Assembly: GCA_951406725.2 (NCBI GenBank)
Contig: OX597833.1
Location: 28,024,001 to 28,088,000, forward strand
Reading direction: 5' to 3'
DNA length: 64,000 bases
DNA from: Octopus vulgaris
Taxonomy: Eukaryota
Position 1 is the first letter of the stretch; every line of letters begins with the position of its first letter. The position numbers were made by a program, and so were the translations under genes. A model generated the notes under the pieces. That model made no database searches and was not told where the DNA came from. It saw only the letters and a list, made by a program, of their open reading frames with translations. This document shows, piece after piece, positions 822 through 64,000 of the stretch.

Positions 822-978
<157 letters not shown>

Positions 979-1369
979 TTGAGCATATGTGTCTATGTGC
1001 GAGTGTTTTATGCGTAACACCAATACCATTACCTCTAAGCCTCGCAACGTGGAATGGCGCATTTTAAGGAATTATCTTCATTCTTCCTTTCTGTAAATGC
1101 TTTCCAAAGAAATTTGTCTTGACAGTGGAAATTTGGCAGCCATTAAAGATGGCGTCTTGTAGAAGAGTGTCTACTGGAGGCCATTTTGTTGGAGTGCTCT
1201 GTTCGTTTTTCTACGTGAAATTACAGCTTTAATGAATATAGAGTATGTGTAGTGAATGGCATGGGGTCTTTTCCTTGACTCTCCTTTTCGACCATCATCA
1301 CCACCACCACCACCATCGCCATCTTCTCTTTCTTTTCTGTTAGCTTTTTTTTCATGTATTTTGCTTTGT

Positions 1370-2200
<831 letters not shown>

Positions 2201-2252
2201 AGCATATATACAGATATATATATATATATTATGTGTGTGTATATGTATATGT

Positions 2253-2291
<39 letters not shown>

Positions 2292-2425
2292 ATGCAAAAA
2301 GGGGGAAAGTAGAACGCAGTACACATAATATGGTTGATTTATTCATTAAAACTTAGTATCGACTGTCATTGGTCTCAGTATGAATCTACAGTAAGTGTTA
2401 CTTCATGCTTCTGAAGTACCGTTTA

Positions 2426-2464
<39 letters not shown>

Positions 2465-3966
2465 GAATATAGACGAATATGTATTGAACGCTGCTTATCA
2501 TAATCGCGAGTAATGTTAACTGGCTCTTGTCACCAAAATCAGTGGATGGACTTCGCTTTAGTGTAATAACAATTAGCGAATTTCACTGTATGAATGTGTG
2601 TTTGTGTAATTACAAGTATATGCGCTTAGCATGGCTGTATATGTATGAACATATACGCATATACGTCTGTGTGTACTTGTGGGGATGAGGAGAGCTTGAG
2701 AGGCAGAGAGAGAGAGAAGGAAGGAGACACAGAGAGAGGACAGAGAGAAGGGGACAGAGAAAGGGGAACAGAGAGAAGAGGAAAGAGAGAGGGGACAAAG
2801 AGAATGAGAAGAGAGAGAGGACTGAGAGAGAAAGATCGTGCCTTCGTGTATTCTGGATTTAATTTTCAAATTTCTCATTTATAGAATAGGATCAAGTTTC
2901 AAACACAGAAACAAAAGGTTCTTTTTTTCTTTCACTAGAATCTAGGCATCAGTTGAGTATATATGCATTTATGCATGTTGCTTCTTCTCTTTCTCTTTTA
3001 ATTTGGAGTAAATTTTGACCAGCCACCGACTTAGTAGCAAGGTTATGAAGGAAAGCATCTTGTTTCAACCATCATCCTTTAAATCTTAAAAAGGTCTTGC
3101 AGGTCTCAGATCTCCTGATCATTTGTATGAATTAAGCATTTGTGTTCTCTCCCCAACATCCGAAGTTCAGCCATACTTTGCTCCATACGTGTTGGTATGT
3201 ATATTGTTGTTCTAATAACAATAATATATGTATGTATATGCGTCAATAAGCATCCTTTAGCATGTGTGCAGCCATGGATGTTACTGCTTGTGTGGATTTC
3301 AGTGTTTTGTCCAAATACCCACTAATAATTGCAGCTATAAGTCCAAAGCTATGGAGCATCTCCAGACTACGGCATTGATGCTTTCTTTTTCATTAATATC
3401 TAAACACAGCATGATATTAATATTTGTTGTACACTACTACGATTTCCACTGCTACAATCCATTTCTTTACACTGTATCAGACTTGTATTAAGACGGAGGG
3501 GGCGCTTTATGGCTCTCAACAAACACAATCATACTGTTGTTTCTGGCAAGCTAACAAAATCGTCACCGTTCCCAACAAAATGCTTAGCGGCATTTCTTCT
3601 GAGTTCAAATGCTGTCGGGATCGACTTTGCTTATCATCATTTGGGAGGGGGAAAATATAGAAGTAAGAGTGATTGTGTGGTAAGAAGTTTCCCGGGTCCA
3701 ATCCCACTGCATAGTACCTTGGGCAAGTGTCTCCTACTATAGCCTTGGGCATACCAAAGCCTTGTGAGTGGATTTGATACATGGATTTGCTGATATTCAA
3801 GCTGTTATTGCTAATGTCTTCCAAAGAGAAGTAGTTGTCATGGTGGTGGTCATGATGGTGGAAGTATCAGTCGTGCTGTGGTGATGGTGATTGTGATGGT
3901 TATGTTGACGAAAACGTGTGCAGAATATCAGAGCTTGTTACTTGAAGGTTAGTTACGGTAAGAGAC

Positions 3967-62394: not shown

Positions 62395-62826
62395 TATAAG
62401 TAAATAAATGGAGTTGAACGAAGATGTTATTAAAATTCTTTTACTTTCGACATATGTTTCGAAGACAACATTGGTTTTATTCCAAAGGAATAAACGGTAT
62501 AAAATGCAATCTTCTCGTCAGGAAAGAAAGAGAGCCTATCTCAACAATAAGACATTATAACAATTACGATGACTGCCTAAATGATAAACAGAACGTTATT
62601 AAGTGTTTTAAAAAAACCGTTAGTAGATTTGACGTCAAAGGCAGATACCAGGAAGAGAAGGGTTAAAGAAATAATAAGTAAAGAACTAATAAAGAGGGAT
62701 GCGTTGGTTGAAAAAATGTTCAAAGGCTTACAAGTAGATTTCTCTATTGAAGTAAAGTGCAAGTTAAACTAACTGTTTAAACTAATTTTAATAACATCTT
62801 CGTTCAGCTCCATTTATTTACTTATA
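62395..62826. mobile_element. Module bounded by 43-bp inverted repeats (62395-62437 / 62784-62826), Penelope-like
   Basis: TATAAGTAAATAAATGGAGTTGAACGAAGATGTTATTAAAATT vs its reverse complement with one mismatch; contains a hammerhead motif. Confidence 0.8.
62444..62526 (-). ncRNA. Minimal type-I hammerhead ribozyme
   Basis: Minus strand CTTTC-CTGACGA-GAAGATTGCATT...AATGTTGTCTTC-GAAA-CATATG-TC-GAAAG: intact core, 5-bp helix I, long helix II, GUC site. Confidence 0.82.
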
Positions 62827-62977
62827 CTACACAAATTACTACACATTAACCCGGAGTTTCTACCTTTGAATAGGCCGCTTCATCCGTGTTACTTGCGTGA
62901 ATTTTGCTACCCTGGTAACTGTTTATTGAATTTTCCATGTTAACGGTAAACATTCATTCATCCATATATATATACAT

Positions 62978-63073
<96 letters not shown>

Positions 63074-63092
63074 CATATATATATATATACAC

Positions 63093-63471
63093 GCAAATAA
63101 TAAAATGGAGAGGATACAAAACAACACATCACCCCGTAGACATTCCAGTGTGTCTATTTATTCCAAAGCATTAGAAAGTATTAGAAGAAAACATACACAT
63201 GTAGCAACTGTGTGTTACACACTCATGTATTAATATTACAAAAAAGACCAAACGATCAGTTCCTTACAGCCGTTTCTGCCAAGAGGCAACGAAATCCTCT
63301 TGGCAGAAACGGCCGTAAGAAACTGATCTTTTCTGAAATCTTAATATATGTGTGTATAACACATAGTTACTACATTCTTCTAATACTATCTAAGACTTTG
63401 GAATAAATAGACACACTGGAATGTCTACGGGATGATGTGTTGTTTTGTATCCTCTCCATTTTCTTATTTGC
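63093..63471. repeat. Long fold-back palindrome (arms 63093-63286 / 63296-63471, 9-nt loop)
   Basis: CCGTTTCTGCCAAGAGG-caacgaaat-CCTCTTGGCAGAAACGG at the centre; outer arms also complementary. Confidence 0.93.
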
Positions 63472-63714
63472 CGTATAAATTAAGGGTAAACCACTTTTAC
63501 CACCCGCCCATATATGACACTCAGATGCGAGACTGCCACGCAATAATCAGCATTTGACTATGAATAATTGGGTACACTACCAGCAGTATATTGGATAGGC
63601 ACTATCCCTTGGTTGGTTTCCCAGCCTCTAACTCTCACAGAAATATATGTGTGTGTGTCTGTATGTATGTATGGAAGTATGTATGTATATATGTACGTTT
63701 GTATGTATATACAT

Positions 63715-63756
<42 letters not shown>

Positions 63757-64000
63757 ACATAAATAATATATAAACATGTGCATATATACATACATATATG
63801 TACATACCTACATCTATATGTATATATACATGCATATATGGTACAGGACACCAAAAAAACGTTGAACACAATGAGAAACGAAAACATAAAAACAAAAACA
63901 TAGAAACGAATTTTTTTCAAACAACGAAAAAACAGAGTACAAGACATACAACATAAGGAATATTCCCCTTCTTCAGTTGTCCCTGTTTCATCTACTCTGC

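What the first reader, a model, noticed from the sequence alone, without database searches (positions are those of the whole stretch)
63093..63471. Fold-back centred exactly on a hammerhead helix II, with the CUGANGA half replaced by its mirror image
Seen: both strands read hairpin-GAAA-CGGCYG-TA outward from the centre (GAAA-CGGCCG-TA at 63306-63317), which is the 3' half of a minimal hammerhead. The central hairpin TGCCAAGAGG/CCTCTTGGCA sits where helix II belongs, but the position of CUGANGA holds the reverse complement of GAAAC. Inference: the ribozyme's own stem nucleated a snap-back or template switch, producing a palindrome with two outward-facing 3' ends. This could be a route from ribozyme-bearing retroelements to MITE-like palindromes.
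Basis: partly seen in the sequence, partly recalled or inferred. Interest (0 to 1): 0.7.

Follow-up and report, generated by a model that had tools for sequence, protein, structure and literature searches.

The report
Twin-primed stub of Penelope retrotransposon
The palindrome is two truncated, back-to-back copies of the tail end of an old Penelope-type jumping gene that carries a predicted self-cutting RNA motif; it was likely written once, from both cut DNA ends, rather than folded back on the ribozyme's own stem, and it is a known kind of genomic debris.

Summary
The palindrome and motifs are real, but the central hairpin is made by the junction itself. Parent copies are non-palindromic: the 3' end of a decayed Hydra-clade Penelope-like element whose predicted type I hammerhead has CUGANGA about 105 nt upstream and a 96-nt stem II. 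The pivot is a 4-nt inverted match that does not pair in the parent fold and is unique (1 of 75 junctions). The right arm runs 170 nt past the reported end. All 53 of 53 fully resolved head-to-head pairs join one arm ending at a short fixed site to one ending at a long fixed site, and 17 of 53 share no sequence. Snap-back cannot build that; priming from both target ends can (inferred). This locus lacks CUGANGA, so it cannot be an active ribozyme, and it has not spread like a MITE. Inverted truncated Penelope copies are in print. The scan already reported two-start twin priming and long stem II hammerheads on other DNA of this genome.

The parts
62963..63092 (.). (TA)n microsatellite, left flank, likely the insertion target
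   Evidence: sequence; 196 of 239 family copies with a short or long end have a TA/TG-type repeat at that end
63093..63299 (-). Short arm: 5'-truncated family copy from -35 to the short fixed 3' end (about +180, counted from the predicted cleavage site), subfamily A, 92% to consensus
63265..63276 (-). 3' half of hammerhead core in the short arm (GAAA, helix III with one CpG-type change, UH site)
63277..63286 (+). 5' strand of the central hairpin: mirror image of the parent's helix II 3' strand, not a parent 5' strand
63287..63295 (-). 9-nt single-copy spacer, belongs to the short arm only
63296..63299 (.). Junction: 4-nt microhomology shared by both arms (family -35..-32 against -22..-19)
   Evidence: unpaired with each other in parent folds
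63296..63643 (+). Long arm: 5'-truncated family copy from -22 to the long fixed 3' end (+348), 87% to consensus, two internal deletions
63306..63317 (+). 3' half of hammerhead core in the long arm with 8-nt palindromic helix III; predicted cut after 63317
63474..63643 (+). About 170-nt tail between the two fixed 3' ends, present on one arm only; homologous to the stretch just 5' of the ORF in younger sister families
63644..63800 (.). TA/TG/TATG-rich simple repeat, right flank
   Evidence: sequence

Best explanation
The palindrome is a single head-to-head insertion of two 5'-truncated copies of the 3' end of an old Hydra-clade Penelope-like retrotransposon, likely made when both nicked strands of a (TA)n target primed reverse transcription at two fixed sites of the element's uncut RNA and the two cDNA ends annealed through a chance 4-nt match. 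Shown: parent family, its ORF remnants upstream, two fixed 3' ends, one-of-each pairing, junction microhomology, loss of CUGANGA here. Inferred: priming from both ends; start sites at UAUA-type motifs; joining by annealing of the 3' ends (CCTC with GAGG) and fill-in; an uncut template, since both arms cross the predicted cleavage site; one RNA molecule, with the downstream polymerase displacing the internally primed cDNA and stopping near its end. Predicted, untested: the parent motif is a dimer-type type I hammerhead with a 96-nt stem II.
For: Parent: 28 other loci continue past the pivot into non-mirror family sequence (27 into the common continuation, one after a short deletion). ORF link: RT, endonuclease, long 3' UTR and hammerhead region are collinear in two loci, L122 and L120; DKT, CxCX5C and no CCHH match the Hydra definition. 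Ends: of 256 distinct copies 127 end long, 112 short, 17 other. Pairing: 53 of 76 junctions have both ends resolved, all 53 long+short, 0 long+long, 0 short+short; 17 of 53 arms do not overlap; 0 adjacent tail-to-tail. Here the spacer belongs to the short arm while the tail is on the other. Junctions: 34 of 75 overlap by 1-9 nt, 7 by 10 or more, 4 blunt, 30 with filler. Shared source: 78 of 471 rare alleles are shared by the partner arm against 6.5 expected (32 pairs); here one substitution and a 2-nt deletion occur in 0 of 72 other copies. Arm starts lie within 40 nt in 19 of 36 overlapping pairs, 12.8 expected, p 0.005 stratified. Two RT starts bounding the tail, on either strand, and uncut RNA as main template were shown in vitro for another PLE (PMC11167929, passages).
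Against: No intermediate is observed; twin (one RNA) and dual (two RNAs) priming cannot be told apart with certainty, and shared alleles could come from one source locus or later conversion. 30 of 75 junctions carry filler rather than microhomology and several breakpoints are imprecise. Loci were picked by BLAST rank or exact patterns, so arm lengths are biased. Pfam gave no family for the ORF pieces and the Atlas only unnamed clusters; the clade call rests on motifs compared by eye. No intact pLTR-ORF-pLTR copy of this family was found. Within-family covariation does not exceed shuffles (5 pairs against 5.1); helix I forms with probability only 0.08-0.26 in monomer folds; the first helix II pair is A-A where sister families have G-C or G-U. 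No TSD can be read in the microsatellite flanks.
Confidence: 0.8

Rival explanations
1. One reading: the ribozyme's helix II nucleated a snap-back or template switch, giving a palindrome that could become MITE-like.
For: The junction lies on the 3' strand of helix II and has a 4-nt inverted match. Arm starts tend to lie close together. Natural palindromes do serve as pivots in a few copies: two loci at about +110, one on helix III, one just 3' of the cut site. One junction, L224, joins -19 to -109, near both helix II strands.
Against: Pivot bases do not pair in the parent. The loop-bearing arm lacks the 170-nt tail that the other arm has, so it cannot have templated it. 1 of 75 junctions has both starts in -40..-11. 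5' ends on this stem strand: 4 in 764 nt at risk (5.2 per 1000) against 5.6-7.0 in +2..+100 and 6.6 inside the stem (103 copies). One genomic copy.
Confidence: 0.04
2. Published model: self-priming on an antisense transcript makes the head-to-head repeat (Arkhipova et al. 2013).
For: Accounts for head-to-head geometry, palindromic junctions and a one-sided tail if the transcript starts at the long end (PMC3846280, passages). In 6 of 19 close pairs the long arm reaches further 5', as this model needs.
Against: In 13 of 19 close pairs, this one included, the short arm reaches further 5'; 17 of 53 pairs share no sequence, so neither arm copied the other.
Confidence: 0.08
3. Two independent insertions, or a later replication or repair error that duplicated one arm in inverted form.
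For: PLEs tend to insert near other PLEs (PMC6765202, passages); arms differ at 20 of 205 shared positions.
Against: Strict one-long one-short pairing in 53 of 53; no TA repeat at the junction; private alleles shared; a later duplication of the short arm could not create the tail, and flanks are not mirrored.
Confidence: 0.06
4. Ordinary MITE, or assembly artefact.
For: Terminal inverted repeats and TA-rich flanks.
Against: Parents are non-palindromic, the junction is unique, arms are only about 83% alike with their own indels.
Confidence: 0.02

Closest known systems
Insertion units of EN+ Penelope-like elements: inverted 5'-truncated copy at the 5' end, tail on one end only (Craig et al. 2021, PMC8557442, passages, section 11, supplement part 2; Arkhipova et al. 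2013, PMC3846280, passages)
   Same: Head-to-head geometry, 5' truncation, one-sided tail, (TA)n target, hammerhead motif near the 3' end.
   Different: Tail about 165-170 nt against 30-40 bp described; both arms are stubs with no ORF; pairing rule and non-overlapping arms favour two priming events over the published self-priming idea.
Hydra clade of C-terminal EN+ PLEs (PMC8557442)
   Same: DKT motif, CxCX5C linker, C-terminal endonuclease without CCHH, (TA)n preference, hammerhead with an extra mismatched pair next to the core as in many listed Hydra motifs.
   Different: 3' UTR of about 3 kb (listed families are mostly under 3 kb in all); stem II domain 96 nt, longer than any motif in supplement File S2 (longest about 52 nt, in a non-Hydra element).
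PLE hammerheads with palindromic helix III, dimer type (Cervera and de la Pena 2014, PMC4209133, parts 1-2 of 4 read)
   Same: Type I order, extra base after CUGANGA, short helix I, palindromic helix III, nearby motifs on opposite strands already noted there.
   Different: Very long rod-like stem II; A-A instead of G10.1-C11.1; at this locus the CUGANGA half is absent.
L1 twin priming and dual priming (PMC2837659, passages)
   Same: Both target strands prime; inverted junction with short microhomology; some pairs with an internal deletion.
   Different: Internal start is fixed rather than variable, and 36 of 53 pairs duplicate sequence instead of deleting it.

Membership tests
EN+ PLE, Hydra clade (parent family) | RT followed by C-terminal GIY-YIG-type endonuclease, linked to this 3' end | tested here: met
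   Broken RT and EN pieces collinear with the hammerhead region in L122 and L120; Pfam silent
EN+ PLE, Hydra clade (parent family) | DKT motif, CxCX5C linker, no CCHH | tested here: met
   Seen in L108 translations, compared by eye with section 11 and supplement alignments; no tree built
EN+ PLE, Hydra clade (parent family) | pLTR direct repeats around the ORF | tested here: inconclusive
   Seen in sister families L315, L316, L326 (98-99% repeats); no such copy found for this family
EN+ PLE, Hydra clade (parent family) | (TA)n target and tail on one end | tested here: met
Type I hammerhead ribozyme (parent motif) | CUGANGA and GAAA boxes, UH site, helices I-III | tested here: met
   All four subfamily consensuses; N7 is A or U; RNAalifold recovers basal helix II; sister families keep the layout with changed helix I and helix III sequence
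Type I hammerhead ribozyme (parent motif) | R10.1-Y11.1 closing pair | tested here: not met
   A-A in this family, G-C or G-U in sisters; mismatches here are common in listed Hydra motifs
Type I hammerhead ribozyme (parent motif) | Compensatory covariation within the family | tested here: inconclusive
   90.4% of cells paired, but 5 double changes against 5.1 shuffled
Type I hammerhead ribozyme (parent motif) | Self-cleavage | not testable with these tools
   3 of 103 5' ends fall within 1 nt of the predicted cut (about 0.6 expected, post hoc); weak hint only
Type I hammerhead ribozyme (this locus) | CUGANGA box present | tested here: not met
   absent on both strands
MITE | Many dispersed copies of the same palindromic unit | tested here: not met
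   1 exact pivot in the genome; top BLAST hits match one arm only
MITE | TSD and matching termini | tested here: not met
   Ends differ by a 170-nt tail; TSD unreadable in simple repeats
Non-LTR retrozyme | Tandem non-coding units each with a hammerhead, no ORF | tested here: not met
   Parent extends several kb into an ORF; no tandem hammerhead units seen in mapped loci

The most novel reading that the evidence does not exclude
Penelope head-to-head repeats are written by twin priming on one uncut RNA at two fixed starts, with the 3'-primed polymerase displacing the internally primed cDNA and halting near its end; and a whole lineage of Hydra elements carries functional hammerheads with 85-100-nt rod-like stem II that short-stem descriptors and Rfam miss.
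Probability: 0.5. Interest if true: 0.5.

Novelty: new member of a known kind. Interest (0 to 1): 0.27.

Why it matters
The locus itself is inert debris. Its family gives a count-based test of an open point, how Penelope-like elements form inverted repeats: 53 of 53 long+short pairs and 17 non-overlapping pairs favour priming from both DNA ends over the self-priming model in print, and tie the in vitro two-start result to genomic structure. A search for 'Penelope-like' with 'twin priming' listed 3 papers and one with 'inverted' and 'microhomology' added listed 1, none about this by title or abstract (not read). The scan has noted the same pattern in other families of this genome.

Tried and rejected
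Rfam at gathering score on the window: 0 hits; E-value scan of 11 loci was swamped by microsatellite miRNA models, no hammerhead among the 150 rows shown of 332. Neptune-type PLE proteins found with PF01541 did not match the family body; the one adjacent hit (L063) is a different element joined to it. An inner second CUGAAGA inside stem II was considered as the core, and as part of a re-wired hammerhead like those in earlier notes: it has no adjacent helix I or II partner, lies in the paired rod, and is kept in 20 of 37 copies against 26 for the outer box; rejected by inspection, not by an exhaustive search of permuted folds. Arm-to-arm gene conversion of the outer 86 nt (4 differences against 14 in 119): Fisher p 0.085, not claimed. 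RNA editing recorded in both arms: 3 of 39 shared rare sites are A>G, no excess. Expression: no RNA holder listed; laid RNA reads came from other copies (0 of 94 and 0 of 121 at 99% or more) and none bridged the junction, so no evidence either way. Early hazard figures used a shifted scale for subfamilies C and D and were replaced. L146 was dropped as mis-chained. Lunse et al. (PMC5785218) is not held and was not read.

Full report
Observation. The 379-nt fold-back is real: -149.4 kcal/mol as DNA, z -30.8. The arms are about 83% alike with two deletions in the right arm. The window lies in a 2.8-Gb genome; earlier scan notes call it octopus, which I did not test.

Parent. A search of the own genome gave 705 first-look candidates, 40 scored; the best hits match query 1-207 only. 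In the 28 other loci examined the sequence goes on past the pivot into non-mirror family sequence. Read on the strand that carries GAAA, the parent has a 3-bp helix I with a further 4 bp, CUGANGA, one extra A, a 96-nt stem II domain, one extra A, GAAA, an 8-nt palindromic helix III and a UA site. An exact 22-mer has 88 matches, which fall into four subfamilies of 21, 24, 23 and 20 (groups partly set by hand). The stem II domain folds with z -3.5, -4.6, -4.0 and -1.6; the enforced hammerhead is within 3 kcal/mol of the best fold. RNAalifold recovers the basal helix II. Against: no covariation above shuffles in 37 copies and low helix I probability in monomers.

Class. Walking upstream, the family runs through about 3 kb of non-coding sequence into broken RT and endonuclease frames, collinear in L122 and L120. 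The pieces carry DKT and CxCX5C, lack CCHH, and follow the Hydra alignments of Craig et al. 2021 (section 11; supplement passages); Pfam does not name them. Younger sister families were found with this RT; 9 of 14 fetched loci carry the same hammerhead layout with a long stem II (85, 86 and 100 nt where measured), helix I UCU/AGA in place of CCU/AGG, a different helix III palindrome and G-C or G-U at the first helix II pair. This between-family change is the best support that the motif was functional. L315, L316 and L326 show direct pLTR repeats, and L322 shows an inverted copy ending at the short site in front of a full element ending at the long site.

Junction. The short arm spans -35 to about +180 and the long arm -22 to +348, counted from the predicted cut. 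They overlap by 4 nt. Those bases never pair with each other in the parent folds, while the true basal helix II pairs mostly at 0.87 or more. The hairpin looks like helix II only because the mirror of a stem's 3' strand resembles its 5' strand. The exact pivot occurs once in the genome.

Family-wide test. In 304 loci, chosen by BLAST rank, exact patterns or position, I found 76 distinct head-to-head junctions and no adjacent tail-to-tail pair. 53 have both 3' ends resolved and all are long+short; 14 are long+unresolved, 7 short+unresolved, 2 unresolved. One mis-chained case was dropped, leaving 75. Pivots range from about -650 to +305. In 17 of 53 the long arm stops before the short end, so the arms share nothing. 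Among 36 overlapping pairs, starts lie within 40 nt in 19 (12.8 expected, p 0.005 stratified; within 15 nt p 0.053); in those 19 the short arm reaches further 5' in 13. 5' ends are not enriched on the helix II 3' strand; 3 of 103 lie at the cut site, a weak post hoc excess. Partner arms share rare alleles about 12 times more often than random copies.

Mechanism. Shown: two fixed ends, one per arm; microhomology or filler at junctions; common source of the arms. Inferred: both nicked target strands prime, one at each start; the cDNA ends anneal and are filled in; the template was uncut because both arms cross the cleavage site; close starts suggest one RNA with the downstream polymerase catching up. 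This fits in vitro data on an anole PLE, where both strands are extended, two starts bound the tail and uncut RNA is the main template (PMC11167929, passages; that paper saw no difference in start site between strands, which my pairing rule does not match). It resembles L1 twin priming (PMC2837659, passages) but with a fixed internal start and frequent duplication. Snap-back and antisense self-priming (PMC3846280, passages) need one arm to be a copy of the other; that fails here and in the non-overlapping pairs.

Novelty. The layout is described for PLEs, Hydra included, and nearby opposite-strand motifs were noted in 2014. The long tail, long stem II and pairing rule were not found in my searches (listings only where not read; part 1 of 5 of the 2026 retrozyme preprint read, its supplements not seen). 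Earlier scan notes report them for other families of this genome; a look-up by sequence found none for this family. Verdict: real, explained, a new member of a known kind; the proposed ribozyme-to-MITE route is not supported.

Noticed in passing
window 62395-62960: A second head-to-head insertion of another repeat family between two (TA)n runs: 49-bp inverted arms at 94% (62395-62443, 62778-62826) and a one-sided tail of about 135 nt; relatives in L213, L113, L238.
   Followed up: partly
L315-L328 (e.g. L315 sense 848-3730 ORF, hammerheads near 362 and 5941): Young Hydra families with open frames of about 955-960 aa, 99% pLTR repeats and long-stem II hammerheads; three loci (L322, L326, L328) have a CCGAAGA core variant.
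   Followed up: partly
L249, L252, L231, L221: A few junctions pivot on natural imperfect palindromes of the element (two independent loci at about +110, one just 3' of the cut site, one on helix III).
   Followed up: partly
L064, L287, L298: Copies that start at or one base before the predicted cleavage site, possible traces of cut RNA used as template.
   Followed up: partly
L108 4830-5700: Long (AAT)n asparagine-coding inserts between RT and endonuclease, like the N-rich inserts described in rotifer PLEs.
   Followed up: no
L092 (3' of ORF): A young Neptune-type PLE family with many 781-aa frames; its 3' end seems to hold a hammerhead with the U3-A8 core variant, read by eye only.
   Followed up: no
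L063 1074-1425: A family copy is joined directly to a Neptune-type endonuclease fragment in the same direction, with no simple repeat at the joint.
   Followed up: no
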